From positions 16,288-80,287 of the forward strand of contig NZ_FUWR01000013.1 in NCBI RefSeq assembly GCF_900167465.1: a DNA stretch of 64,000 bases. Reading direction: 5' to 3'. This stretch comes from Trichlorobacter thiogenes. Its GTDB lineage: Bacteria; Desulfobacterota; Desulfuromonadia; Geobacterales; Pseudopelobacteraceae. Below the pieces are notes generated by a model. That model made no database searches and was not told the DNA's origin. It worked only from the letters and a program-made list of their open reading frames with translations. The translations under genes were made by a program, and so were the position numbers. Each line of letters starts with the position of its first letter. The first letter of the stretch is position 1. Below are positions 1 through 30,725 of the stretch, piece by piece.

Positions 1-577
1 TGCCGTAAAGGGGATTCAACCCCAGTTTACCGATTGTTTTCAAGGCATCAAAATCAACCTTCTGTTCCAGGGCAGCCAGATAGGCCCCATGGGGGTCAAT
101 CATCTCAAGCAGGTTACGCCGTTTAGCCTCTTCAAGGGACAGCTCACTGTAGCAGAAATCCCCCATCATCTCATTGGCACGTTTTTCAATCTGCTTGGTG
201 GTCTCTGGCAGGGCTGGTCCACCCCAGGAAGGAGAAAATTTGATGCCATTATATTCAGGCGGATTATGGCTGGCGGTAAAGTTAATCCCACCGGCAGCGC
301 CACGCCGCAGAATTTCAAATGCAATCACCGGTGTGGGGACATCACGGCTACAGAGCAGCGCCTTGATCCCGGCCCCTGCCAGCACTGAAGCGGCTTCTTC
401 CGTAAATCGTTTGCCCATAAAACGGGTATCACGGCCAATAATCACCCCTTTATCCGCCTCACCGGTAGATTTCAGGTAGTCTGCAATGGCCTGGGTTACA
501 ATCTTGACATTCTCAAAGGTGAAATCTTCACATAGAATTCCACGCCACCCGGAAGTGCCGAATGCAATATGAGCCAT
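1..577 (-). CDS. phosphoglucomutase/phosphomannomutase family protein (alpha-D-phosphohexomutase), 5-prime part; gene continues beyond the left edge
   Basis: Not in the ORF track because it runs off the edge. Minus-strand translation from ATG 575-577 gives MAHIAFGTSGWRG...GINFTASHNPPEYNGIKF. TASHNP is the phosphoserine active-site motif of the family. A GGAGG SD lies 5 nt upstream. Confidence 0.8.
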   Translation of the reverse strand, partial: MAHIAFGTSGWRGILCEDFTFENVKIVTQAIADYLKSTGEADKGVIIGRDTRFMGKRFTEEAASVLAGAGIKALLCSRDVPTPVIAFEILRRGAAGGINFTASHNPPEYNGIKFSPSWGGPALPETTKQIEKRANEMMGDFCYSELSLEEAKRRNLLEMIDPHGAYLAALEQKVDFDALKTIGKLGLNPLYG

Positions 578-749
578 GATCCCTCCCCCAAAAGAAAATA
601 AGACAGCTTTGATCTTGTTACGCTACTATAGAAGCAGAGCCAGCGTCAAGTCAAACGGCATGCAAAAACTACTGTCTGATATATTTTTTATAGACAGTTA
701 GATCAGTTTTTGGTATTGACTTTTTCTTTTCAGAATTGCTACAGTTTAA

Positions 750-766
750 ATTCAGTTGAACTGAAT
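750..766. promoter_or_regulatory. perfect 8-1-8 palindrome ATTCAGTT-G-AACTGAAT, candidate operator ~20 nt upstream of the SD of the PxxKW gene
   Basis: Read directly in the divergent intergenic region between the mutase and the small Cys-rich gene. Confidence 0.3.
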
Positions 767-786
767 CACTTTGAGGAGGATGAAGT

Positions 787-1077
787 ATGCAGTGTCAAAC
801 CGTGCTTCCCGGTACCGAGTGTACCTTCATGGCAAAAAGCGGATGTGTATTCCCTGAAGGTTCCTGCCAGACCGTGGTAGAGAACTGTGAAGGTTGTGAA
901 CGAATTGTTGAAGGCAGCATCGGTCAGGTCTGCGGCGCCTATCCGGCACCTGCCAAGAAGTGGGCTAATGGCATCTGTAACTTTGCTACCCACGTCAAGG
1001 TAGAGATCAAGATCGAAGACCTCAAGGTCAACCCGCTCAAGGCTTCCAAGAAGGCATCTGGCGGCAAGAAGAAGTAA
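787..1077 (+). CDS. small cysteine-rich protein (PxxKW-type; motif PAPAKKW, 10 Cys)
   Basis: 96-aa ORF with a strong SD (GAGGAGG 7 nt upstream). Has CxxC / C-x-x-C pairs and a Lys-rich tail. Followed by an intrinsic terminator. Confidence 0.6.
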   Translation: MQCQTVLPGTECTFMAKSGCVFPEGSCQTVVENCEGCERIVEGSIGQVCGAYPAPAKKWANGICNFATHVKVEIKIEDLKVNPLKASKKASGGKKK

Positions 1078-1096
1078 CTTCATCCATACATTGTAC

Positions 1097-1130
1097 AAAA
1101 AAAGGGAAGCTCCGTGCTTCCCTTTTTTGT
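1097..1130. terminator. rho-independent (bidirectional) terminator AAAAAAAGGGAAGC-tccgt-GCTTCCCTTTTTT
   Basis: 10-bp GC-rich stem flanked by an A-tract and a T-tract, 20 nt after the stop of the PxxKW gene. Confidence 0.7.
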
Positions 1131-1149
1131 ACCTGTTCAGGAGACAACC

Positions 1150-1599
1150 ATGTCCTTTACCAGCCTTACCTGTCCTGCCTGCGGTGCAGCGGTCAAACAG
1201 TACCGCAACCCGCTTCCCACGGTGGATATCATCATTGAACTGGACAACAAAATCGTCCTGATCAAACGCAAAAACCCGCCCCATGGCTGGGCTCTGCCGG
1301 GCGGATTCGTGGATTATGGTGAATCTCTTGAGGCTGCTGCTATCAGAGAAGCGCAAGAAGAAACCAACCTGACGATCCACAACCTGAAACTGTTAGGCTG
1401 CTATTCTGATCCGGCCAGAGATGAACGGATGCACACCATTACAACGGTCTATGTTGCCCAGGCTAGCGGCACTCCCCAGGCTGCTGATGACGCGGCAGAA
1501 CTGGCCCTGTTTCTCCCAGAGCAGCTCCCTGCCCCGCTTTGCTTTGATCATGCCCGGATACTGGCCGATTATATCTCCTTCAAGGCAGCATGCCCTTGA
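1150..1599 (+). CDS. NUDIX hydrolase with N-terminal Cys4 zinc-ribbon
   Basis: Nudix box GGFVDYGESLEAAAIREAQEETNL. N-terminal CPAC...(zinc ribbon). Start moved to ATG 1150 (GGAG SD) because the track start 1114 lies inside the upstream terminator. Confidence 0.8.
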   Translation: MSFTSLTCPACGAAVKQYRNPLPTVDIIIELDNKIVLIKRKNPPHGWALPGGFVDYGESLEAAAIREAQEETNLTIHNLKLLGCYSDPARDERMHTITTVYVAQASGTPQAADDAAELALFLPEQLPAPLCFDHARILADYISFKAACP

Positions 1600-3986
1600 A
1601 CCAGTTCACCAATGCACTTCTGCCGTAATACCTTCAAAGCCTGATCTGCCGGTAATGGCCGGCTGATCAGGAACCCCTGTACCTGATCACAGTTGTTTTC
1701 CCGCAAGAAATCCATCTGCTGTTTTGTTTCAACCCCTTCAGCAATCACCTTCAGATTGAGACTACTACCCATGGCAATAATTGCCGAGGCGATCGCTGCA
1801 TCAGTGGAGTTGCTCTCCACATCCCGCACAAATGATTTATCAATTTTCAAGGTATTCACGCTGAAACGTTTCAGGTGGGACAGCGATGAATAGCCGGTAC
1901 CAAAATCATCAATTGAGATATGAATCCCCAGACTGGAGATCTCGTTCAGTACCTCCACCGCATAATCGGGATTCTGCATAATCACGCTCTCGGTAATCTC
2001 AAACTCAAGCAGTTCACCGGGCAGACCTGTTTCTTCAAGGATTGCACGAACCGTTTCAACCAGACGGCTGTGCTGCAACTGGTAACCTGAGAGATTCACC
2101 GCAACCCGCAAGCCCTGCATACCATCCTGATGCCAGGCCATATTTTGACGGCAGGCCTCCCGCAACACCCATTCGCCCAGATCAACAATCAGACCGCTCT
2201 CTTCAGCCAGCTGAATAAATTCGGTTGGCGCCAGCAGGCCCAGCTCGGGATGCTGCCAGCGCACCAAAGCCTCCGTAGCCACGATACAGTCGCTGGTGAC
2301 ATCCAGCTTAGGCTGGTAGTAGAGCCGGAACTCACCGCGATCCAGGCCACGTCGCATGGAGTTGGCAATGGTGAAACGACGGGAGGCGTTCTGATCCATA
2401 CTATCATTATAAAACTGGATATTGTTCCGTCCCAACGCCTTGGCATGATACATGGCGACATCCGCCTTCTGCATCATGGTTTCAACATCATCCTCATCAT
2501 CAGGATAGGTACAGACACCGCCGCTAGTGGTCACAAACAGTTCATGGTTACGAATTACAAACGGCTGACCAAGTTCAATCAGCAGATTATCACATAATGA
2601 GCTAATATCAGCCCGATCTGCGACATTCAACATCAGCACAACAAACTCATCGCCACCGATCCGGGCAACGGTGTCGGTCTCACGGAAACAGCCTTTCAGA
2701 CGTTGGGCAATCATCCTGAGCAGATCATCCCCCACAGCATGTCCCAAGGTGTCATTGATGATCTTGAAACGGTCCATATCAAGGAACAGCAATGCAAAAC
2801 GGGAGTGCATCCGGTGAGCGAGGGCCCGGGCCTGTTGCAGCCGATCATGCAGCAGGATACGATTGGGAAGCCCGGTCAGCACATCATGGTGCGCCAGCTT
2901 GATCAGCTCACGCTGGGCCAGATTCCGCTCTGTGATATCGTGGCAGACCCCCCAGATCATCTGGTCAGGCGTCTCATTACAGCTGGTTGAAAGGCTCACC
3001 TCCAGATCCAATGTCCTGCCAGCAACCGGAGAGTTCAGGCGCATCTCAAAGTGGCCAACATCCACCTGCCTGATTACCTTTCCAAACTGGCGAATCAACA
3101 CCCCCCTGCCTTCCTCATCGGTCAGATTAAAAAGACTGGCACCACCAGATAGCGCCTCCAGTGGGCCGATCATATCCTGACCGATCTGATTCAGGTACAA
3201 CAGGGTTCCATCCTGACGGCAGCAGAAAATCAGGTCATGGGCAGTAGTGATAAAGCCGGTCAGCGCCTCCTCACTCTGTTTAACCTTCTGGTGATCAGAC
3301 CGGATCTTATCCATCAGGAAGGCCCCAAAGAAAGAAACCGCAGCATTAACTCCGGCAACCCAGAGCCACATCAGCAGTTCAAACAGGATACTGGGGCTTT
3401 CTTCCTCCATAAACGGCATCCTGACCGTTGCAATAAAATCAAGTTGTTCAGCCACGAGAAGCACCCCGTAAAGGGCGGCCCCGATCATGCCGATTCCCCA
3501 GACCTCCCGTTTTTTTTCAAACAGAAAGGCCGACTCCAATGAGATCAGCAGATAGGCTGGCCAGAGCCAGCTGACCACACCACCGCTCCAGTGAATTGCA
3601 GCCGTGACAAACAGCAGATCGACCAGCACCTGCAGATAGATCACTAAACGACAATTTTTCCAGACACTGCAGGGGAGCGAGGTTAGTGGAAAGGCAATTA
3701 CAAAAAAGATTGCGGCAGCCTTTAACGAGAAGCTCCATTGTTCAAGATGGAAGATCGGCAGATCAATATCCGGGGCAAACAAAAGTTCAGCCAGCAGCAC
3801 ATAGCAGAATAACGCAGCCAACATGGCCCAACGCAGCTTAACCATCAATGAAACACGGACACACTGTTCAACCAGCCGTTCTCCGATAGAGCGATTCCGG
3901 GCATCCGGCTGGATCAACTGAGACAGCGAATCAAACCAGGCGGCATCAGGCGGTGAACTGTTTGTTTGAAGAGATTCGGGGGTCAT
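1569..3986 (-). CDS. membrane-bound PAS/GGDEF/EAL protein (diguanylate cyclase/phosphodiesterase)
   Basis: About 6 N-terminal TM helices, a PAS region, RIGGDEFVV (GGDEF) and EALVRW...DDFGTGYSSL (EAL). 3-prime end overlaps the NUDIX gene convergently. Confidence 0.85.
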   Translation of the reverse strand: MTPESLQTNSSPPDAAWFDSLSQLIQPDARNRSIGERLVEQCVRVSLMVKLRWAMLAALFCYVLLAELLFAPDIDLPIFHLEQWSFSLKAAAIFFVIAFPLTSLPCSVWKNCRLVIYLQVLVDLLFVTAAIHWSGGVVSWLWPAYLLISLESAFLFEKKREVWGIGMIGAALYGVLLVAEQLDFIATVRMPFMEEESPSILFELLMWLWVAGVNAAVSFFGAFLMDKIRSDHQKVKQSEEALTGFITTAHDLIFCCRQDGTLLYLNQIGQDMIGPLEALSGGASLFNLTDEEGRGVLIRQFGKVIRQVDVGHFEMRLNSPVAGRTLDLEVSLSTSCNETPDQMIWGVCHDITERNLAQRELIKLAHHDVLTGLPNRILLHDRLQQARALAHRMHSRFALLFLDMDRFKIINDTLGHAVGDDLLRMIAQRLKGCFRETDTVARIGGDEFVVLMLNVADRADISSLCDNLLIELGQPFVIRNHELFVTTSGGVCTYPDDEDDVETMMQKADVAMYHAKALGRNNIQFYNDSMDQNASRRFTIANSMRRGLDRGEFRLYYQPKLDVTSDCIVATEALVRWQHPELGLLAPTEFIQLAEESGLIVDLGEWVLREACRQNMAWHQDGMQGLRVAVNLSGYQLQHSRLVETVRAILEETGLPGELLEFEITESVIMQNPDYAVEVLNEISSLGIHISIDDFGTGYSSLSHLKRFSVNTLKIDKSFVRDVESNSTDAAIASAIIAMGSSLNLKVIAEGVETKQQMDFLRENNCDQVQGFLISRPLPADQALKVLRQKCIGELVQGHAALKEI

Positions 3987-23448: not shown

Positions 23449-23614
23449 ACATTACATGCGATATTGAGGACGGTGGGCCGGCTTCCCTGCTCCACACGAT
23501 GCTTGCTGCTACTCCTTGCAGGGCAGGATAACGTCAATATGATGAAGAGCCGTGGGATGTCTACTGTAAAATTCCCTTTCGGGGATGAATAGGCTGTCGA
23601 ACTGCACCTAAGGG

Positions 23615-24904
23615 TTACAAAATAATGTGGTGGCTCTTGATTCTTGACGCTTCGTTATGATCAACACCTGTTTCGCGGGCGAATTCCATCCAGTTAGAAA
23701 CCGCCTCACCTACTTTATGGATTACCTTTTTGGCAGTCCCAATACCAAATCTGTTGGCAACGGCAAGCAAGTCCTCTCGGGTGATCCCCTTGAATTTACC
23801 GTTCACGGACATCAGATGCTGATCTGTCCACTCGCTTGCAGGGCTGTAGGCATGTGTAACGTCATAAGCCGGGGCAAGTTGCCATGATCCGAACTCTGCC
23901 ATAATGAAGGAATGGTTTTTGGTGTGATCATCACAGTTGGCAGCCATGACATTGAACGTCATACGACGGAATGCTTCCTCCATAGCCAGGTATCCAAGTC
24001 CCAGCTTGCTGATCACCATAAAATACTGAGCATAATCATGTGTTGCCTTCTGTTTGTAGTCGAGATGGGCCATAGCGCAGAGGGTAGTCATGTGGATCTT
24101 CCTGTTGCCGTCGCGGTCGAAGCGTTTGGTCATGAAGTGCGCCCGACCATTCTCCTCAATAAGCCTGCACGGTGACATGGTGATCCCTGCGTTTGTGGCC
24201 ATACGATAATAGGCCATCTCGATCCGGCCATAGTCCTGTGAACTGCCCAGCGCGAGATCTGTGCCCACACCATCGAATTTAAGCAGCCAGTGTTCAAAGC
24301 CCGGTGCAACGTCAAACTGGCCAGCGCGAATTTCGTTGGTATCCGGATTCCATGCTATTGCGGCCTTGGCGCGAGCACCTCCGGCTGATGTCCCTACCTG
24401 GATGATTTGGTTAAGAGCAGCTTCTGCCATGGCATCAGTTTGAAAATCACCGGATACAGATTGCCGGGCCACTTCAACAAGTTTAGACAGATCAATGGCC
24501 GTGCGACTGGAAGTCACTCTCGTTCTGGACGGTTTGAATTCCAGAGCGCCCATACTCCTTTTGCCCATATAGCCCAGACGGTCAAGGGCCGTGATTGAGT
24601 CCTTACTGACACCTTTTTGCGCCATCCAGGCATCGACCAGACTGTTGCCGAAATCATCCGGCAACGCATCCGACAGTAACGCAGGCAGACGTTTATAGGT
24701 AAGTTCCGGCAGAAACGGGAACACATAGGGCTCAAAACTAAGTGGCATCATAATCGGCGCCAGTTCAATGCCAAGCTTCACGAAATGCGGATAGTACGCA
24801 AAAACATAATAACCACTGCTCGGGTCAAGAACGACCGCCCCTACCCGCTTACCCCATATTTCAACTTCTATTTTATCAATCGGTATGTAAGCGGCCATGG
24901 CCAC
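23615..24904 (-). CDS. hipA: HipA-family toxin kinase
   Basis: HipA N-terminal plus kinase core (..NCDDHTKNHSF..). 429 aa. True start probably ATG 24896-24898. Confidence 0.85.
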   Translation of the reverse strand: MAMAAYIPIDKIEVEIWGKRVGAVVLDPSSGYYVFAYYPHFVKLGIELAPIMMPLSFEPYVFPFLPELTYKRLPALLSDALPDDFGNSLVDAWMAQKGVSKDSITALDRLGYMGKRSMGALEFKPSRTRVTSSRTAIDLSKLVEVARQSVSGDFQTDAMAEAALNQIIQVGTSAGGARAKAAIAWNPDTNEIRAGQFDVAPGFEHWLLKFDGVGTDLALGSSQDYGRIEMAYYRMATNAGITMSPCRLIEENGRAHFMTKRFDRDGNRKIHMTTLCAMAHLDYKQKATHDYAQYFMVISKLGLGYLAMEEAFRRMTFNVMAANCDDHTKNHSFIMAEFGSWQLAPAYDVTHAYSPASEWTDQHLMSVNGKFKGITREDLLAVANRFGIGTAKKVIHKVGEAVSNWMEFARETGVDHNEASRIKSHHIIL

Positions 24905-24906
24905 CT

Positions 24907-25254
24907 CTATTCAGAATGATCCGGCAACAGCAGTTCGTTCTTCGGTTTCAGCTTACGGGTTCTCGGCTTAAATACTTTTTGTCGTGGGGATTTCTGCGGA
25001 ATCATTTGCAGGGGGTTTACCGTGACTTTTGGCGCAAGTGTTTCCAGCCATTCTACCCGATTCAAGACCCGCAAAATTTTGATCAGGGATTTGGTCGTAG
25101 ACGTTTTTCCGGATTCGATTCGCTTTACAACATTCAGGGCGACTCCGGCTTGTTCAGAAAGAGCTTGCTGATCCATATTACGAAGGATTCTGAGATTGCG
25201 AATTTGCTGCCCCAAAACCTCTTCCCATTCTTCGGGCGTCCTGTAATTAACCAT
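24907..25254 (-). CDS. hipB: HipB-like XRE-family HTH antitoxin/regulator
   Basis: HTH QQALSEQAGVALNVVKRIESGK. Basic C-terminal tail. 2-nt gap to hipA. Confidence 0.75.
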   Translation of the reverse strand: MVNYRTPEEWEEVLGQQIRNLRILRNMDQQALSEQAGVALNVVKRIESGKTSTTKSLIKILRVLNRVEWLETLAPKVTVNPLQMIPQKSPRQKVFKPRTRKLKPKNELLLPDHSE

Positions 25255-25487
25255 AATAGCCCCTATATGATCTAATATAGAAAAACATACTTAATATAGC
25301 CTATATATAATCTACATTACTTAACTTACCATACAAAGTCCAGAAAGAATGCAACAAAACCAACATAACAGACCATATATAGTCTATTTTAATCTTTTTT
25401 ATGTATTTTATACCATATAAGAGCCATTAAAACCAAATGCAAATTCCATCCAAATCATCAAGGTCTTGATGCGGGTTGAGTAGCGGC

Positions 25488-25557
25488 CAACGGCGTACCC
25501 CCATGACCCGCCCGCCCAGGTTTTTCAGGCGGTCGGCGTCCATGGGGCTTGTTGGGA
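25488..25557. repeat. copy A of a CAACGG...GTTGGGA imperfect-palindromic repeat (attC-like candidate)
   Basis: caacggcgtacccccatgacccgcccgcc-caggtttttca-ggcggtcggcgtccatggggcttgttggga. Lies 3-prime of the SEC-C gene. Confidence 0.6.
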
Positions 25558-25666
25558 TATTTTGCAGTTTGTTCACTATTTCAAATTTGGAGACGCGGCC
25601 CCTCAGCCTCCCCGCTGATAATACGGGGAGTGTCTCCAGTTCCCCCATGGATGTCCCTATTTATTC

Positions 25667-28069
25667 TTAACGGCCATGACACTTTTTGTATTTTGCACCA
25701 CTACCGCAGGGACACGGATCATTCCGCCCCGGCTTTTTCGTATTCCCTAGGGGCATGACGTTTTTCGGCTGGTTTAGATTCACCGCCCGAGTTGGTTGAG
25801 CCATTCGCGCGGCATCTTCGTAAATGTAGGCGTTTTCTTCCGTTCGTACCGCCGGTATGCGGACCACGAAAGATTGCGCCCGATGGTAGGTTCCATTGGG
25901 ACTAACCTCCGCCACGACGCCAATGACGTTAGAGGCTTTGACGGCTAATGCAGCTGCGCTGGCCTTGTCATTCACCTTGGTCCAGTCAATTTGGTAGTCG
26001 TGATGTTGAAGCCAAACGAAAAGCGGCTTACCGTCCCCGGATAGAGTAAAGTAACGGGCGGGATTCTGGTTCAGGGTTTGGCGAAGATCGGACAGGATCT
26101 TGGCCAGATTTTTCCGCCCTTCCTCTCCTAAATCACGGATATGGCTCTCCACTGAAAGCCACCCTCGAGCTCGGGTGGCGTCAAGTACTTCAAGCAGCTT
26201 CAGCACCTCTTCCGGGAAGTCCTGCGTCGGAAATGGCCTATTTTCCCAGTCTTCCCCCTCGAAGCTCCTGTCGACGATGTCGCACATGCCATCCCAGATG
26301 AGCATATTCGCTTTGCCATCCTTCAACTGATCGGCAATTTCCTGATCGAAGCGGTTCTTTTTCAGGTACGCCCCCAGATGGTCGAACTCATCGAAGAGAT
26401 GAGCCTGGCGCATTCCTGCCACGGCTTGCCGAACCTCCATGTAGTGAGCAAACGAGCCGGGTGTGGGCAGGAACCGCTTGAGTACGAACAGGTCATCAAT
26501 GGACAGCGAAACGAAGGCATGCTTGCCAAGGAGCGGCTCAACCTGCGGCAGTACCTTGCAGTATGCCGAAAAGGGCGAGAATGACTCGACTGTCAGTCCA
26601 ATCGGCACCATCACACGGTAGTCAGAGCGGCGGACACGGCCGCATTCTTCATACTTGCCGTCGATGAGGCGGTAGAGCGGCACTTCGTCCGCAGAATTCA
26701 GGTAGCTAAAAAAGCGCTCGCACTGCTTGTACGCCTTGAGTACCAAGTCTTGCACGGACTGGGCGTGGCGGCCGAAATCAAGCGCTGGCGACGCAATGGT
26801 AGCAGCGGCTCCTGCCTTGGCTTCAACCAGGAACAGTATGTCATCGATCAGGATAAGGGTGTCGTTCTCGGACCACTGCTTGCTTGCAGGATCCTTGTAG
26901 TAGACCTCCTGGAAAACTGTGGCGCCAGGAAGTTGGTCGGCTAGAATGTCGGCGAAGGCGGCTTCACTCATCGCCTTCTGCCGATTCTCAAAGGTCTTCT
27001 TGTACTCCTGCTTTCTCTGAAGAAGGTTGTAGAGAAGCGCACGATACCCCGCGTCGCGGGTGAAGCACGGGTCGATAGCGTAGTAGTCCGATCCAACCTG
27101 AATTAAGGGTTTCTTCCGGGCAGGTAGTGTCCGGTAGGGCGTCCCCGCAAAATCACCCGCAGCGAAAAACTCGGTTTCTTCTCCGCGACAGTACGCTAAG
27201 TCAGCCAGCAGCTTCGGCGGTAGCTTCGTGTGACAGCTCACGTTGGCGATACCGCCACGAAACATGTCATTAATCGCTTGCACTGCAGCTTGCGACTGTT
27301 CTGCATTGGCCGCAGCCCACGCCTCTATGACGCCTTCCAGAGGCTTATCCTGTGCTGCAGCAAAGGCCTGTGCTTCCTCAAACTGCTTACTCATTTCCAT
27401 GATCGCGTCGGCATACCCAGAACGTGTGGAGTTAGCCATTGCCTGGAAGCCTTCCGCGATATCGGCGGCTCCGACGCCGTACACCTCTATAAGGACATCA
27501 TTGTGAGGAGCCAGAACGTAGCGGTAGAACTCTTCTTCCAAAACTTGGTAGCGATTTCCGCGCAGCATGACCCAGGTAGATTTGGCGCGGAATTCAATGT
27601 CGGCCGTGTCGGGACCGAATACGCCGTCCTTGGTATCGGCGGACGTGGCCATGGCGAAAAACATGGCCAACTCTCGCAGTTTTCTGCCAAGTTCAAACAG
27701 CTCGGTGCACTGAGCTTCGTCGAATGCCATTTCCGGAGGAGCAGCATCTGACGCAAGAACCGCGTGTACGTACTCCAACAGGAACTGGTTCTCGTTGATC
27801 AGATCATCCGGGCCGTCCTCTTCGCGTTTCTCCTCGGTGGCGCTTTGGTCTGCCATCGCGTTCATCATGTACTGGGCATAGATGTAGCCGAGCAGATCAT
27901 GCGGAGGCATGGTGACAATTAGCTCGCGCATTCGAGCTGCAATCGCTTCCATTTCTTTCAACATGGAAGCCGCAGTTTCTTTTCTTTTTATATCGTCCAT
28001 AACCAACATATCCCCGATATTTCTGGGAGGAATTCGGGACACCCCTCGGTTTTTCACATGCCGATTCAA
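25667..28069 (-). CDS. large hypothetical protein with C-terminal SEC-C metal-binding motif; possible PD-(D/E)xK nuclease core
   Basis: C-terminus GRNDPCPCGSGAKYKKCHGR (SEC-C). Mid-protein LILIDDILFLVEAKAG resembles a D...ExK nuclease motif (inference). Start ambiguous (TTG 28069 or ATG 28009). GC about 52-55%. Confidence 0.55.
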   Translation of the reverse strand: MNRHVKNRGVSRIPPRNIGDMLVMDDIKRKETAASMLKEMEAIAARMRELIVTMPPHDLLGYIYAQYMMNAMADQSATEEKREEDGPDDLINENQFLLEYVHAVLASDAAPPEMAFDEAQCTELFELGRKLRELAMFFAMATSADTKDGVFGPDTADIEFRAKSTWVMLRGNRYQVLEEEFYRYVLAPHNDVLIEVYGVGAADIAEGFQAMANSTRSGYADAIMEMSKQFEEAQAFAAAQDKPLEGVIEAWAAANAEQSQAAVQAINDMFRGGIANVSCHTKLPPKLLADLAYCRGEETEFFAAGDFAGTPYRTLPARKKPLIQVGSDYYAIDPCFTRDAGYRALLYNLLQRKQEYKKTFENRQKAMSEAAFADILADQLPGATVFQEVYYKDPASKQWSENDTLILIDDILFLVEAKAGAAATIASPALDFGRHAQSVQDLVLKAYKQCERFFSYLNSADEVPLYRLIDGKYEECGRVRRSDYRVMVPIGLTVESFSPFSAYCKVLPQVEPLLGKHAFVSLSIDDLFVLKRFLPTPGSFAHYMEVRQAVAGMRQAHLFDEFDHLGAYLKKNRFDQEIADQLKDGKANMLIWDGMCDIVDRSFEGEDWENRPFPTQDFPEEVLKLLEVLDATRARGWLSVESHIRDLGEEGRKNLAKILSDLRQTLNQNPARYFTLSGDGKPLFVWLQHHDYQIDWTKVNDKASAAALAVKASNVIGVVAEVSPNGTYHRAQSFVVRIPAVRTEENAYIYEDAARMAQPTRAVNLNQPKNVMPLGNTKKPGRNDPCPCGSGAKYKKCHGR

Positions 28070-28120
28070 TAAATACGGGGAGTACCCCTAGTTTTTCAAA
28101 AAATATATTCTCTTAGCATT

Positions 28121-28192
28121 CAACGGGATGCCCGGTTGACCCGCGCCGGGGCGATTCTCAGCCCCGGTCGGTGTCTAACCGGCTGGTTGGGA
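28121..28192. repeat. copy C of the repeat family
   Basis: caacgggatgcccggttgacccgcgccggggc-gattctca-gccccggtcggtgtctaaccggctggttggga. Stem differs from copy A by compensatory changes. Overlaps the stop of the Abi-like gene. Confidence 0.6.
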
Positions 28193-29236
28193 CGGATTTG
28201 ATTTCCTGCTCTCGTCGGAGTTTGATGGACGCAAGTCATATGGGACCCCCCCATTCTGACCAAAAGCTCCGCCGTAGCACTTTTCAAAATTAAACCTAAT
28301 GTTTTTTTGTTCTTTATACTGTAAGAACATTTCATCACTAGCTATTGCAGCACTACTGCCAGCCAACGAATAGCCATTTTCTGTAGGCTCAATAGGTAGG
28401 TGCTCAAGCATTGCGTACTCGATGAGAAGGTTTTTGAATTGGCCTCTGTCACAAACTCCATCAAGACAATTAATAAATAGCAATGCTAATTCCTTAGCAG
28501 ATAGTTGTGCCCGCAAAATGCCGGCGAACTTTCGCTTGTCAAGTTCTGTTGCCTTGTCTTTGTCGTAGTTGTCTATTAATTTTAAGGCTTGATACAAATT
28601 TCTGAAATAGTGACCAAGAATATGATTACTCTTATCTTGAATTTTCTTGTATCTCGCTAGAACTTCGTCTGGTGAGGATGTACCTGATGTTATGAAAGTA
28701 AATATTTCGTCAAAAGCCCCACGGCCTTCAACAATCGTTTTCTTTTTAATCATCGAAGCATTAAATATTTCAGCCAATGATGTCGCTGCACCAGTTTTTT
28801 CATTTAATTCTTCTATGTCAACTTTGATGTTATCTACAATCTTGTGGTGGAGATCAAGGATATTGAAAAATGTGGTTTCTACTGCTTGTCGATTTAACGC
28901 TTCTGATGTTTTTTCATATTCTACTCTTGCAAACTTTAACTCCTGTCTTTGAATTACAATCGTAGCTATTAGTCCAAAGAAGGTCAGGAATGTAAGGACA
29001 GGGTTTAGTACGCCACCAAAGAAATCACCAAATACACCGATATAATCTTTTTTTCCTATATAAAGTAAAAACAGGTCGAGGGCCAGAAGACATATAGCCG
29101 CAACCGCTGAGAAAACTAATAATTTGTATAAGAGGTTGGTTAATGCGGACTCACCAGCTTCTTCGTGAAATAGTTCATCAAATTGAGGATACTTACTATC
29201 AATCCATTTGCCAAACTTCTTGAAGAACACAATCAA
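28175..29236 (-). CDS. putative phage abortive-infection-like membrane protein (two N-terminal TM helices, GDFFGG motif)
   Basis: 353 aa, about 35% GC. N-terminal TM pair around ...GVFGDFFGGVLNPVLTFLTFFG... Family assignment (putAbiC-like) is from memory, not a search. Likely start GTG 29230 (AAGGAG 6 nt upstream). Confidence 0.45.
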   Translation of the reverse strand: MIVFFKKFGKWIDSKYPQFDELFHEEAGESALTNLLYKLLVFSAVAAICLLALDLFLLYIGKKDYIGVFGDFFGGVLNPVLTFLTFFGLIATIVIQRQELKFARVEYEKTSEALNRQAVETTFFNILDLHHKIVDNIKVDIEELNEKTGAATSLAEIFNASMIKKKTIVEGRGAFDEIFTFITSGTSSPDEVLARYKKIQDKSNHILGHYFRNLYQALKLIDNYDKDKATELDKRKFAGILRAQLSAKELALLFINCLDGVCDRGQFKNLLIEYAMLEHLPIEPTENGYSLAGSSAAIASDEMFLQYKEQKNIRFNFEKCYGGAFGQNGGVPYDLRPSNSDESRKSNPSQPAG

Positions 29237-29249
29237 CTCCTTTTTGTTG

Positions 29250-29304
29250 CAACGGCTTGGGAGAACAACGGCGTTTTTTGGCCGCTGCTTCTGCCTTGTT
29301 GGAA
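29250..29304. repeat. copy D (shorter, more degenerate) of the repeat family
   Basis: caacggcttgggagaacaacggcg-ttttttg-gccgctgcttctgccttgttggaa. Abuts the SD of the Abi-like gene. Confidence 0.45.
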
Positions 29305-29361
29305 CCTCACATTTTTTCCGCTTTCATATATATTAAATTCGGGATCAGCGAGTTTTTTGTT

Positions 29362-30006
29362 TTATTTACGAGTACTTGATCTAATACTGCTGATATCTGA
29401 GTTGTTTAAAATCGTTGTTTCATTTCCTGCAAAATATGCTACTTGATTCTGGCTTGAGGTGATTATATAGCCATCTGTACTCTTGTTGCCCGCTTTCAAA
29501 AGTATTGTTGACTTAAATAATTTGTCTGATGCGGCATTTTCTTTAAATCTTAAAGCCGCTTCTTTTCCGGATTTATCTGATGCTATTAAAGCAAATAGAA
29601 TACCTATGAATAAAACAAGAAGTGCTGTTGCTAGTATTAGCATCCGATACGAAAAACCAGAAAATTTATTGATGTCATATATGCCTTCATTGATATTTGA
29701 TTCTGATTTGTCTGACGTAAAGTTACTTGGAGTAACTTGTCTAATTTTATTGACTCTATTTATGATAAACTCTCCAATTAATGCAGTAACTAGAACTAAT
29801 TCAGCTGCTACGAAAAACCACACAACTGCTGATGCACCCATTGTTGATAATGACACAAAACCTTGAAATATAGTTTGGTCAATAGACAGCGGGAACAAAG
29901 AATCATTAATGCCAAATTCGCGGAGATAGCCTTGGTGAAAGGTAAGCCCTAGAGTGTACAGTGTTGCAGTAATCATGGAGATTATTACTGAAGCGTGTTT
30001 TAGCAT
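29362..30006 (-). CDS. hypothetical small membrane protein (3-4 TM), AT-rich
   Basis: 214 aa. AAGGAG SD 5 nt upstream of ATG 30004-30006. No recognisable domain. Confidence 0.5.
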   Translation of the reverse strand: MLKHASVIISMITATLYTLGLTFHQGYLREFGINDSLFPLSIDQTIFQGFVSLSTMGASAVVWFFVAAELVLVTALIGEFIINRVNKIRQVTPSNFTSDKSESNINEGIYDINKFSGFSYRMLILATALLVLFIGILFALIASDKSGKEAALRFKENAASDKLFKSTILLKAGNKSTDGYIITSSQNQVAYFAGNETTILNNSDISSIRSSTRK

Positions 30007-30141
30007 TATAACTCCTTAGCAAAAATGCTCATGTATATTTGGCACTTTGTTACTCATTCTTCCCGTTCAGCTAGCGAGGCCACAAAAACTTCACCTCATT
30101 TTTTCCCTGCCACCACTCCAGCCGCGCCAAGTCACGATTTT

Positions 30142-30211
30142 CAACGGGGTGCCCCCATGACCCGACCGCCCAGAATTTTAGGGCGGTCGGCGTCCATGGG
30201 GCTTGTTGGAA
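30142..30211. repeat. copy B of the repeat family
   Basis: caacggggtgcccccatgacccgaccgcc-cagaattttag-ggcggtcggcgtccatggggcttgttggaa. About 89% identical to copy A. Lies 3-prime of the GNAT gene. Confidence 0.6.
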
Positions 30212-30236
30212 CATTATTCTTTACTTCTGTCCCGTA

Positions 30237-30668
30237 TTAACCTTCGTCTACTAGAATTAGTCTCGGGTTCTCCCATATAGAGCGCCGAGGTTCACCCGTT
30301 GGCAGAAAGCCGAGATCTCGCCAGAATGGCTCAGATCTGCGAGGTGCGCATTCGACTGTAATAAACTCGGCCCCAGATGCAAACAAGCGTTTGATAGCGT
30401 CGAGAGCTAACAACTTTCCGATGCCTCGTCTGCGATGCTCCGGCTTGACTTCAAGTATGTCTATTGAAGCGCCAACGGACTTTCTATTGTGAACGACAAA
30501 TCCGACCACCTCAGTACCGGCAACAGCACAAAAAACTTCGCCTTTTTGCAGAGAATCTCTAATAATCTCGTGATTGCAGTTGAAGCCTTCACCGCTCTCG
30601 CGCTCCTCTCGTTCAAGCCATGCTAGTATTTCAATAAGATGGATATCATTCGATTTGATAATGATCAT
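30237..30668 (-). CDS. GNAT-family N-acetyltransferase
   Basis: ...ILEVKPEHRRRGIGKLLALDAIKRL... acetyl-CoA binding motif. 143 aa. Confidence 0.75.
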   Translation of the reverse strand: MIIIKSNDIHLIEILAWLEREERESGEGFNCNHEIIRDSLQKGEVFCAVAGTEVVGFVVHNRKSVGASIDILEVKPEHRRRGIGKLLALDAIKRLFASGAEFITVECAPRRSEPFWRDLGFLPTGEPRRSIWENPRLILVDEG

Positions 30669-30691
30669 TTTAAATGGTCCAACTCCTTATT

Positions 30692-30725
30692 GAGCGGTTC
30701 ACGCGCACGTGCGCGTGAACCGCTC
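30692..30725. repeat. perfect 34-bp palindrome GAGCGGTTCACGCGCAC|GTGCGCGTGAACCGCTC
   Basis: Seen in sequence. Lies between the flotillin 3-prime end and the GNAT start. Confidence 0.6.

What the first reader, a model, noticed from the sequence alone, without database searches (positions are those of the whole stretch)
25488..28192. Compensatory base changes preserve the hairpin between repeat copies A and C
Copy A stem: GACCCGCCCGCC / GGCGGTCGGCGTC. Copy C stem: GACCCGCGCCGGGGC / GCCCCGGTCGGTGTC. The left and right arms changed together so that pairing is kept. The loops differ (gtttttca against gattctca) and the termini (CAACGG, GGTCGG.GTC, GTTGGGA) are conserved. Selection is therefore on secondary structure rather than primary sequence. 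That is expected for recombination sites recognised as folded single strands (attC) or for structured RNA/DNA elements. It is not expected for a recent direct-repeat duplication.
Basis: seen in the sequence. Interest (0 to 1): 0.7.

Follow-up and report, generated by a model that had tools for sequence, protein, structure and literature searches.

The report
Integron attC sites, integrase-less cassette array
The repeated hairpins are attC recombination sites that bound four mobile gene cassettes in an integrase-less integron array in the Trichlorobacter (Geobacter) thiogenes chromosome, which is a well-known kind of element, so the finding is real but ordinary.

Summary
Copies A (25485-25557) and C (28118-28192) fold into the same bulged hairpin, with both arms changed together. 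There is also a third strong copy (B, 30139-30211) and a weak fourth (D, 29247-29304).

A metagenome scan found 102 distinct relatives. In 105 aligned sequences the stems co-vary strongly, and no shuffle out of 500 reached the observed score.

Five lines of evidence support it:
- Related contigs carry co-oriented arrays of these sites next to integron integrases (TIGR02249, 342-352 bits, cutoff 265) in the canonical divergent layout.
- Flanking genes are almost always antisense to the modelled strand.
- The + strand has AAC on its 5' arm and three bulged bases (N, Y, T) on its 3' arm, spanning a 6-bp stem. This is the published bottom-strand signature.
- G:T pairs outnumber A:C by 62 to 11.
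- The 2.6-kb SEC-C cassette recurs at 97% identity in two other contexts, and the homology ends exactly at the G^TT crossover points.

No integrase lies in the 64-kb window, so this is a CALIN (a cluster of attC sites lacking an integron integrase). Its cargo is GNAT, a membrane protein, AbiC-like and SEC-C. It is a new member of a known kind and of low interest.

The parts
25485..25557 (+). attC site A, which belongs to the SEC-C cassette. The + strand is the folding (bottom) strand: GGCCAAC ... GTTGGGA. The crossover lies between A25490 and C25491.
   Evidence: Sequence; hairpin fold; model R1 scores 77.5 bits, E 1.5e-19, on the + strand. The homology with L237 and L240 ends here.
28118..28192 (+). 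attC site C, which belongs to the AbiC-like cassette: ATTCAAC ... GTTGGGA. It has the same architecture as A, but different outer-stem and inner-stem sequences. The crossover lies between A28123 and C28124.
   Evidence: R1 scores 62.2 bits, E 3.6e-15. The upstream end of the SEC-C cassette homology lies here.
29247..29304 (+). Probable attC site D, which belongs to the 214-aa cassette: TTGCAAC ... GTTGGAA. It is a different sequence type. It forms a hairpin with mismatches and bulges on the 3' arm. CAAC is at 29250-29253.
   Evidence: R1 scores 25.4 bits, E 1.3e-4, on the + strand; sequence. The + strand folds at -12.6 kcal/mol (z -2.5) and the - strand at -10.1 kcal/mol (z -1.1). The site lies in the 125-nt gap between two ORFs.
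30139..30211 (+). attC site B, which belongs to the GNAT cassette: TTTCAAC ... GTTGGAA. It is nearly identical to A. The crossover lies between A30144 and C30145.
   Evidence: R1 scores 80.6 bits, E 2e-20; the fold has z -4.9.
30677..30683 (-). Candidate right-hand boundary of the array. It is a lone core site, GTTGGAC on the gene strand (GTCCAAC on +), 11 nt upstream of the GNAT start codon. No attC hairpin, attI or intI lies beyond it.
   Evidence: Sequence. No R1 match and no integrase match to the right of it. That this is the insertion junction is an inference.
30145..30682 (-). Cassette 1. It holds a GNAT acetyltransferase gene (30237-30668, 143 aa) plus attC B.
   Evidence: Pfam Acetyltransf_1, 6.3e-11; gene call.
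29253..30144 (-). Cassette 2. It holds a 214-aa predicted membrane protein (29362-30006) plus attC D. GC is 36-41%, against about 53% for the window.
   Evidence: ORF list; no Pfam or PADLOC family; composition.
28124..29252 (-). Cassette 3. It holds an AbiC-like abortive-infection protein (28175-29230, 351 aa) whose stop codon lies inside attC C. GC is low.
   Evidence: Pfam putAbiC, 4.5e-23; PADLOC AbiC, 7.6e-12; gene call.
25491..28123 (-). Cassette 4 (2633 bp). It holds a 777-aa protein with a SEC-C motif (25667-28000) plus attC A. It is the one cassette whose mobility is shown directly.
   Evidence: It is 97.1% and 97.5% identical over window 25488/9-28124/6 to metagenome contigs L237 and L240, where its neighbours are different.
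23615..25254 (-). hipB-hipA toxin-antitoxin pair, immediately beyond the last attC. An AT-rich leader lies at 25255-25484. No attC follows the pair, so it is a flank and not a demonstrated cassette.
   Evidence: Pfam HipA_C 2.8e-50 and HTH_3. There is no hairpin or R1 match in 23449-23614.

Best explanation
The hairpin repeats are attC sites, the recombination sites at the 3' end of integron gene cassettes. Four co-oriented sites (B, D, C, A, reading along the gene strand) bound four single-gene cassettes: GNAT, a 214-aa membrane protein, an AbiC-like protein and a SEC-C-motif protein. The array lies between a Band-7 gene and hipBA in the chromosome of Trichlorobacter (Geobacter) thiogenes. 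No integron integrase lies within the 64-kb window, so the array is a CALIN (a cluster of attC sites lacking an integron integrase).

How it works is inferred from established integron biology. The bottom strand, which here is the + strand, is extruded or exposed as single-stranded DNA and folds into the bulged hairpin. An IntI tyrosine recombinase recognises the shape: the paired R and L boxes, the extrahelical bases and the unpaired spacer. It cleaves between A and C of 5'-AAC-3'. Recombination between two attC sites excises a circular cassette. Recombination of attC with attI, or with a secondary site, re-inserts it.

Shown here: the structure, the covariation, which strand is selected, the array organisation, the link to IntI in relatives, and the exact cassette boundaries. 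Inferred: that these particular sites are still recombined, and by which integrase.
For: 1. **Structure and covariation.** The three strong copies fold alike. On 105 sequences there are 12 pairs with changes on both sides, and 0 of 500 shuffles reach the observed score. On 133 model-aligned matches, 20 of 26 pairs show such changes.
2. **Integrase association.**
   - tblastn with IntI1 finds full-length homologues at about 40% identity in L130, L201 and L179, and partial ones in L221 and L192.
   - The L201 and L179 proteins score 351.7 and 341.5 bits on TIGR02249 'integron integrase' (cutoff 265), over positions 2-313 of 315.
   - Their best annotated relatives are integron integrases of Pelobacter, Geotalea, Geobacter and Trichlorobacter.
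3. **Arrays.** About 50 of the 71 related contigs hold 2-7 sites. All are co-oriented except in L127, and spacing is about 0.1-4.6 kb. In L201, L130 and L179 the integrase sits at one end, on the same strand as the modelled strand. That is the canonical divergent layout, with the modelled strand as the bottom strand.
4. **Gene orientation.** The longest open frame next to the site is antisense to the modelled strand in 73 cases against 1 on the right, and 64 against 6 on the left. The window shows the same arrangement.
5. **Bottom-strand signature.** The criteria come from Nivina et al. 2016 (PMC5027507).
   - AAC lies on the 5' arm.
   - Three unpaired bases lie on the opposite arm: N, then 3 bp, then Y, then 3 bp, then T. 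This gives a 6-bp stem between the first and last bulge, with the distal base a T, as in the three-bulge sites VCR2 and attC-oxa2.
   - G:T pairs outnumber A:C by 62 to 11 in the two inner helices.
   - The + strand is more stable by 4.6 kcal/mol in 98 of 105 sites with RNA parameters.
6. **Cassette mobility.** The SEC-C cassette is 97% identical in L237 and L240, among different neighbours. The homology stops at G^TT on both sides. The observed block is window 25488/9-28124/6, against a predicted 25491-28123.
7. **CALIN criteria** (Cury et al. 2016, PMC4889954). There are at least two attC sites on one strand less than 4 kb apart (start-to-start 2633, 1129 and 892 bp), and no integrase in the window.
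8. **Foreign composition.** Cassettes 2 and 3 have 36-41% GC, against about 53%.
Against: - No integrase, attI or integrase pseudogene lies in the window. Whether T. thiogenes encodes IntI elsewhere is unknown (searches did not show one).
- The unpaired spacer is lopsided, 7-8 nt on the 5' arm and 2-3 nt on the 3' arm. The published range is 5-6 nt on each arm.
- The first bulged base is mostly C, not the usual G.
- With DNA energy parameters the two strands fold equally well.
- Site D is weak, at 25 bits.
- I could not run IntegronFinder's own attC model.
- My model, built from this family, found nothing in one class 1 integron fragment, where the only attC is probably cut by IS1.
- Recombination was not tested.
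Confidence: 0.93

Rival explanations
1. A structured RNA element on the gene transcripts, such as a terminator, an mRNA-stabilising hairpin or a regulatory motif. It would be conserved because the RNA fold matters.
For: Each hairpin lies just downstream of an ORF and would be transcribed with it. Covariation alone does not tell RNA from single-stranded DNA.
Against: - The wobble bias points to the strand antisense to the genes. G:T pairs outnumber A:C by 62 to 11 on the + strand, and these would be non-pairing C:A on the mRNA.
- No U-tract follows the hairpin on the gene strand, and the terminator scan calls none at these sites.
- There is no Rfam family.
- The family co-occurs with integron integrases, and cassette homology breaks exactly at G^TT. 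An RNA motif explains neither.
Confidence: 0.03
2. A REP-, BIME- or MITE-like extragenic palindrome, dispersed by a RAYT or IS200/IS605-type HUH transposase and unrelated to integrons.
For: It is a short GC-rich imperfect palindrome in intergenic DNA, present in many copies across environmental contigs. Such elements are also processed as single-stranded hairpins.
Against: - In 64 kb the copies occur only within a 4.7-kb stretch (25485-30211), and all have one orientation.
- In relatives they form co-oriented arrays that start at an integron integrase.
- Flanking genes have a fixed orientation relative to the site.
- The unit that moves is gene plus site, cut at AAC/GTT.
- I saw no RAYT gene, though I did not search the loci systematically for one.
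Confidence: 0.02
3. Same element, different origin. The array is a piece of a complete sedentary integron, separated from its intI and attI by rearrangement or deletion. It was not built by insertion of cassettes at a secondary chromosomal site by an integrase acting in trans.
For: Both routes are recognised origins of CALINs (PMC4889954; Loot et al. bioRxiv 10.1101/2022.09.11.507474). Relatives in the same order carry complete integrons with this attC type.
Against: - The right end is a bare GTTGGAC, 11 nt before the GNAT start.
- Only about 65 nt, mostly a 34-nt perfect palindrome, separate it from the stop codon of an ordinary Band-7 gene.
- There is no intI remnant.
- This looks more like insertion into a chromosomal site, but the evidence is thin.
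Confidence: 0.35
4. A recent tandem or dispersed duplication of one sequence, with the differences between copies being neutral drift.
For: Copies A and B are about 90% identical.
Against: - Copy C differs from A at many stem positions, yet every change is matched on the other arm.
- The same pattern holds over 105-133 sequences.
- The DNA between the copies is unrelated and differs in GC content.
Confidence: 0.01

Closest known systems
attC sites (59-base elements) of integron gene cassettes, especially the three-bulge type such as VCR2 of the Vibrio cholerae superintegron and attC-oxa2
   Same: - An imperfect palindrome of 58-75 bp with AAC...GTT ends.
- Sequence that varies while the structure is kept.
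- Three extrahelical bases on the arm opposite AAC, spanning a 6-bp stem, with the distal one a T.
- G:T enrichment on the bottom strand.
- One site per promoterless ORF, and a crossover at G^TT.
   Different: - The GAC-CCG / CGG-Y-GTC core is unusually well conserved in sequence across the family.
- The first bulge is mostly C rather than G.
- The unpaired spacer is 7-8 nt on one arm and 2-3 nt on the other, rather than 5-6 nt on each.
- The loop is T-rich, not the GAA typical of mobile-integron sites.
CALIN, a cluster of attC sites lacking an integron integrase (Cury et al. 2016, IntegronFinder)
   Same: Four co-oriented attC sites less than 4 kb apart, no intI or pseudogene nearby, cassettes of mostly unknown or non-resistance function, and a chromosomal location.
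   Different: Nothing essential. Whether the genome holds an integrase elsewhere is unknown.
Sedentary chromosomal integrons of Geobacteraceae and Desulfuromonadales (Geobacter metallireducens, Geotalea uraniireducens, Pelobacter propionicus)
   Same: The metagenomic contigs that carry this attC family encode integrases 65-79% identical to those annotated in these taxa. The attC type appears to be specific to this lineage.
   Different: The window array has no integrase.
Integron cassettes that encode anti-phage defence. That this has been reported recently for sedentary and mobile integrons is my own recollection; I did not check it here.
   Same: One cassette encodes an AbiC-like abortive-infection protein. 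A HipBA module flanks the array. In another contig the SEC-C cassette sits next to GmrSD.
   Different: No defence function was tested. The SEC-C protein matches PADLOC models only through its 20-35-residue C-terminal metal-binding motif.

Membership tests
integron attC site | Terminal R boxes holding the conserved triplet: 5'-RYYYAAC-3' at the 5' end of the bottom strand, complementary to 5'-GTTRRRY-3' at its 3' end | tested here: met
   - All four sites have CAAC...GTTG: GGCCAAC/GTTGGGA, ATTCAAC/GTTGGGA, TTGCAAC/GTTGGAA and TTTCAAC/GTTGGAA.
- Some outer positions of the 7-mers depart from R/Y.
- In the wider family, sites not selected by the pattern show YAAC...GTTR, including TAAC...GTTA.
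integron attC site | Structure, not sequence, is conserved: a hairpin kept by compensatory changes | tested here: met
   On the MAFFT alignment 88.9% of cells are paired, 311 cells have changes on both sides against 149.5 in shuffles, and 0 of 500 shuffles reach the score. On the model-fitted alignment 20 of 26 pairs have changes on both sides.
integron attC site | Two or three extrahelical bases on the arm opposite the AAC triplet in the bottom strand, with a 6-bp stem between the first and last, and the distal one a conserved T (PMC5027507) | tested here: met
   - In A, B and C the 3' arm of the + strand carries bulges N, then GTC, then Y, then CGG, then T, which is 3 + 3 bp.
- T and Y were forced by the search pattern. 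In the sampled sites not selected by the pattern the distal base is still mostly T, sometimes G, A or C.
- The first bulge is C in 75 of 105 sequences, not the usual G.
- Site D does not show the regular spacing.
integron attC site | Unpaired central spacer between the R and L boxes, usually 5-6 nt on each arm | tested here: inconclusive
   An unpaired spacer is present but lopsided: 7-8 nt (GGNNNNN) on the 5' arm and 2-3 nt (Y)TK on the 3' arm. I did not check whether this falls within the natural range of attC sites.
integron attC site | Length 57-141 bp | tested here: met
   A is 73 bp, B 73 bp, C 75 bp and D 58 bp, measured from the first base of RYYYAAC to the last base of GTTRRRY.
integron attC site | The bottom strand is favoured in folding: more G:T pairs and a lower free energy than the top strand | tested here: met
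   - With RNA parameters there are 3.03 against 0.82 G:T pairs per site, and the + strand is lower by 4.62 kcal/mol (98 of 105 sites, p 8e-18).
- With DNA parameters there are 1.48 against 0.20 G:T pairs, but the energy difference is -0.16 kcal/mol and not significant.
- The published analysis used RNAfold.
integron attC site | Sits at the 3' end of a usually single ORF and forms co-oriented arrays with the genes on the top strand | tested here: met
   The window has four sites and four single-gene units, all with genes on the - strand. In relatives the orientation bias is 73:1 and 64:6, and all multi-site contigs but one are co-oriented.
integron attC site | Cassettes are discrete units whose ends lie at the G^TT crossover | tested here: met
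   The SEC-C cassette is 97% identical in L237 and L240. The sequences diverge immediately outside G^TT at both ends. Only this one cassette could be tested.
integron attC site | Association with an integron integrase (IntI, with its specific additional domain) and an attI site | tested here: met
   Met for the family: IntI in L130, L201, L179, L221 and L192, and TIGR02249 above its cutoff. Not met for this locus: there is no IntI in the window. I did not identify attI anywhere.
integron attC site | Match to the curated attC covariance model of IntegronFinder | not tested
   The model is not available in these tools, and Rfam has no attC family (one search found nothing).
integron attC site | Recombined by IntI as a folded single strand | not testable with these tools
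   This needs conjugation-delivery or in vitro assays.
CALIN (cluster of attC sites lacking an integron integrase) | At least two attC sites on the same strand, less than 4 kb apart | tested here: met
   Four sites on the + strand, with start-to-start spacing of 2633, 1129 and 892 bp.
CALIN (cluster of attC sites lacking an integron integrase) | No integron integrase nearby | tested here: met
   tblastn with IntI1, XerC and two family IntI proteins finds nothing better than E = 2.4 in the whole window. That covers at least 25 kb to the left and 33 kb to the right of the array.
REP/BIME elements mobilised by RAYT transposases | Many copies dispersed through intergenic regions of the genome, in both orientations, not tied to cassettes | tested here: not met
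   In 64 kb the copies lie only between 25485 and 30211 and all have one orientation. In relatives they lie in arrays next to IntI.

The most novel reading that the evidence does not exclude
The attC family of Desulfuromonadales may be read partly by sequence, in a lineage-specific way. Its GAC-CCG / CGG-Y-GTC core and lopsided spacer are far more conserved than the structure alone requires. The cognate integrases all carry an extra N-terminal region of about 160 residues that contains a second SAM-like DNA-binding domain. If that extra domain contacts the conserved core, it would be a variant recognition mode for integron recombination. It would also explain why this attC type is confined to one lineage.
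Probability: 0.12. Interest if true: 0.5.

Novelty: new member of a known kind. Interest (0 to 1): 0.2.

Why it matters
This is a clean, ordinary example of a known principle: integron attC sites are selected for the shape of one folded DNA strand, so their arms co-vary. The finding has three practical uses.
- It marks a four-cassette array without an integrase in Trichlorobacter thiogenes, with exact cassette boundaries.
- It shows that one cassette, the SEC-C protein, circulates among groundwater and sediment bacteria.
- It supplies a 105-133-sequence alignment and a model for the attC type of Geobacteraceae and Desulfuromonadales.

It does not open a new question. The cassette cargo (an AbiC-like protein, plus a neighbouring HipBA) fits the current view that integron arrays store defence and stress genes.

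Tried and rejected
- **Genome-collection scan.** The pattern TGACCCG N15-35 GGTCGGYGTC was too loose. All 121 matches in the 120 loci were chance hits, mostly in high-GC actinobacteria, and none had a proper CAAC/GTTG frame.
- **Viral-contig scan.** One true copy (L122) and two chance hits. L122 holds a single site in a region that looks like a mobile element, with a DnaC-like ATPase and toxin-antitoxin pairs. I did not pursue it.
- **Rfam and tRNA scans of the window.** Nothing found.
- **blastn of attC B against plasmids.** No match.
- **Model R1 on a class 1 integron fragment from E. coli.** No match. The only cassette there (dfrA17) abuts IS1, so its attC is probably cut, and R1 is also family-specific. 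The test is uninformative.
- **Paper search for the run and WGS accessions.** Nothing found.
- **Search for a T. thiogenes integrase among IntI homologues and their clusters.** None seen in the top 120 hits or in eight clusters. This is not conclusive.
- **A 22-nt direct repeat at 25620-25641 and 28072-28093.** Its exact core is 12 nt, about what chance gives in 6 kb, so I dropped it.
- **An attC to the left of hipA (23449-23614).** No hairpin or model match, so hipBA is treated as flank.
- **Promoter and terminator scan of the array.** Counts are at or below the shuffled expectation.


Full report
**1. The observation**

- Copy A runs from CAAC at 25488 to GTTGGGA ending at 25557.
- Copy C runs from CAAC at 28121 to GTTGGGA ending at 28192.

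Folded as single strands, both give the same architecture. From the outside in it is:
- a short CAAC/GTTG helix;
- an unpaired spacer;
- an outer stem of 6-7 bp;
- a bulged base;
- GAC/GTC;
- a bulged pyrimidine;
- CCG/CGG;
- a T opposite a C;
- a variable inner stem;
- a T-rich loop.

Between A and C, two stems differ on both arms while pairing is kept.

Copy B (30142-30211) is almost the same as A. A covariance model later found a weak fourth site, D, of another sequence type at 29244-29307.

**2. Is it more than chance?**

Three copies cannot establish covariation, so I looked for relatives.
- A first scan of the genome collection used too loose a pattern and returned only chance matches.
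- A tighter pattern found one true copy in a viral-collection contig.
- A pattern that fixed only CAAC, TGACCCG, GGTCGGYGTC and GTTG found 111 metagenome contigs with 102 distinct sequences.

In those sequences the outer stem takes many forms, each matched on the other arm: CCCCCATG/CATGGGG, GCCGTTG/CAACGG, GGAAATG/CATTTTC, GGCCTTG/CAAGG, GCACATG/CATGTG.

On a plain MAFFT alignment of 105 sequences, using the structure read from copy A:

| measure | observed | shuffled |
|---|---|---|
| cells paired | 88.9% | 77.0% |
| cells changed on both sides | 311 | 149.5 |
| covariation score | 0.287 | 0.099 |

- None of 500 shuffles reached the observed values for these three measures.
- Sliding the partners by 1-3 columns drops pairing to 27-50%.
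- Individual pairs are striking. Columns 23-65 read UA 52, AU 48, GC 3. Columns 22-66 read CG 59, GC 26, AU 15.

I built model R1 from this alignment. It then found a further 60-odd sites that do not match the pattern. On the model-fitted alignment of 133 matches, 20 of 26 pairs have changes on both sides. These include the blocks that the pattern had frozen: CCG/CGG becomes CTG/CAG or CGG/CCG, and GAC/GTC becomes CAC/GTG.

Caveats: the fitted alignment leans toward the structure, and related sequences are not independent events. The MAFFT result does not depend on the model.

**3. What it is**

*Source and cargo.* The window comes from Trichlorobacter (formerly Geobacter) thiogenes. Six of its proteins are exact matches to proteins that NCBI names from that species, on a 119,667-bp contig.

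Between the sites lie single genes, all on the - strand:
- a GNAT acetyltransferase (30237-30668);
- a 214-aa membrane protein (29362-30006);
- an AbiC-like abortive-infection protein (28175-29230);
- a 777-aa protein with a SEC-C motif (25667-28000).

The two middle units have 36-41% GC, in a window of about 53%. A hipBA pair follows the last site, but no further site follows it.

*Integrases in related contigs.* IntI1 finds homologues at about 40% identity in five contigs. The full-length ones in L201 and L179 score 351.7 and 341.5 bits on NCBIfam TIGR02249 'integron integrase' (cutoff 265), across the whole profile. Their closest named relatives are the integron integrases of Pelobacter propionicus, Geotalea uraniireducens, Geobacter metallireducens and Trichlorobacter MAGs.

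*Arrays.* Model R1 finds 2-7 sites per contig in about 50 of 71 contigs, always co-oriented except in L127. In L201, L130 and L179 the integrase lies at one end of the array, on the same strand as the modelled strand. The cassette ORFs lie on the other strand. This is the canonical integron layout, in which intI and the cassettes diverge. It identifies the modelled strand, the + strand of the window, as the attC bottom strand.

*Gene orientation.* Across the family, the longest open frame next to a site is antisense to the modelled strand 73 times against 1 on one side, and 64 against 6 on the other.

**4. Strand identity and the published attC criteria**

Nivina et al. 2016 (PMC5027507) define the bottom strand as follows:
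- It carries 5'-RYYYAAC-3' in R', complementary to GTTRRRY in R''.
- It has two or three extrahelical bases on the arm opposite the AAC triplet.
- A 6-bp stem separates the first and last of these, and the distal one is a conserved T.
- It has an unpaired central spacer and a variable terminal loop.
- On average it has more G:T pairs (1.24 against 0.39) and a folding energy lower by about 2.1 kcal/mol than the top strand.

The + strand here meets most of these:
- AAC is on the 5' arm.
- Three unpaired bases lie on the 3' arm in the order N, 3 bp, Y, 3 bp, T. This is the spacing of the three-bulge sites.
- In the two inner helices, G:T or T:G occurs 62 times and A:C or C:A 11 times.
- With RNAfold's RNA parameters the + strand is more stable by 4.62 kcal/mol in 98 of 105 sites.
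- With DNA parameters the energies do not differ (-0.16 kcal/mol, p 0.46), though G:T pairs still favour the + strand at 1.48 against 0.20 per site.

There are three departures:
- The spacer is lopsided, at 7-8 against 2-3 nt.
- The first bulge is usually C.
- The loop is T-rich.

The wobble bias also argues against a functional RNA hairpin, because the favoured strand is antisense to the cassette genes.

**5. Direct evidence that gene plus site is a mobile unit**

The SEC-C protein belongs to a 90%-identity cluster with members on other contigs. I fetched two of these contexts. In both, the gene is followed by a strong match to the model: 71.4 bits in L237 and 78.6 bits in L240.

blastn shows 97.1% and 97.5% identity over window 25489-28126 and 25488-28124. 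The cassette predicted from the two AA^C crossover points is 25491-28123.

The junction alignments show the three sequences diverging immediately outside G^TT:
- Upstream: ...CCCG|TTGAAT..., ...GCCG|TTGGTC..., ...CTAG|TTGAAC..., followed by identical sequence.
- Downstream: identical sequence up to ...CCG|TT, then GGCCGC / ATATCG / GCAACG.

The neighbours differ in each case. The window has the AbiC-like cassette and hipBA. L237 has a 1755-aa protein and a PG_binding protein. L240 has a resolvase and GmrSD. This is the hallmark of an integron cassette.

**6. Classification and mechanism**

The window has no tyrosine recombinase of any kind. Searches with IntI1, XerC and two family integrases give nothing better than E = 2.4. 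It has four co-oriented attC sites 0.9-2.6 kb apart. It therefore meets the definition of a CALIN (Cury et al. 2016, PMC4889954).

At the right end, a lone GTTGGAC lies 11 nt upstream of the GNAT start codon. About 65 nt further on, mostly a perfect 34-nt palindrome, is the stop codon of a Band-7 gene. This is compatible with insertion at a secondary chromosomal site, a recognised route. Loss of the integrase by rearrangement is not excluded.

The mechanism is inferred from established integron biology:
- The + strand folds when it is single-stranded.
- IntI recognises the shape.
- IntI cleaves between A and C of AAC.
- Recombination between two attC sites releases a circular cassette.

Whether these sites are still active, and which integrase would act on them, was not shown.

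**7. Verdict**

The phenomenon is textbook attC behaviour, and this locus is a new member of a known kind. Interest is low.

The only mildly unusual points concern the lineage. The attC core is strongly conserved in sequence, and the cognate integrases carry a conserved N-terminal extension of about 160 residues with a second SAM-like domain.

Noticed in passing
L201:410-1849 (-), L179:6361-7770 (+), L130 about 361-1761 (-): The integron integrases linked to this attC family are 450-500 aa long. The integron-integrase profile covers only residues from about 160 to the end. The extra N-terminal 160 residues or so are conserved at 65-70% identity across contigs, and they give a second match to the SAM-like N-terminal domain PF13495. 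The same length is seen in integrases annotated from Geobacter, Geotalea, Pelobacter and Trichlorobacter.
   Followed up: partly
window 30692-30725: A perfect 34-nt palindrome, GAGCGGTTCACGCGCACGTGCGCGTGAACCGCTC (fold -25.7 kcal/mol, z -8.2), lies between the Band-7 stop codon and the right end of the cassette array. No T-run follows it on the gene strand. A public short-read assembly of the same organism breaks inside it.
   Followed up: partly
L240:5164-12930 and L237:456-5723: In other contigs the 97%-identical SEC-C cassette sits beside a resolvase and a GmrSD-type restriction gene (L240), or downstream of a 1755-aa protein with no family match (L237). In L240 the upstream junction is not an attC hairpin.
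   Followed up: no
window 25255-25484: A very AT-rich leader upstream of hipB holds repeated ATATAG / TATATA motifs. It lies between hipB and attC A and may be the hipBA promoter and operator.
   Followed up: no
window 28124-30144: The two middle cassettes have 36-41% GC, against about 53% for the rest of the window. This points to a foreign origin for them, distinct from that of the SEC-C cassette (54-55% GC).
   Followed up: partly
L122:6414-6492: One copy of the attC family lies on a contig filed as viral (IMG/VR). It sits among DnaC-like, toxin-antitoxin and endonuclease genes, with only a single site in the 8 kb held.
   Followed up: no
L180:1508-1714 (the same DNA is held as L184:3081-3287): Two attC matches lie only about 60 nt apart, with no ORF between them. 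This could be an empty or ORF-less cassette.
   Followed up: no
L127:1334-1513 and L171:5944-6264: Short stretches similar only to the N-terminal 60-110 residues of the extended integrase occur near attC arrays. L127 is also the one contig with two arrays in opposite orientations, so it may hold a rearranged or decayed integron.
   Followed up: no
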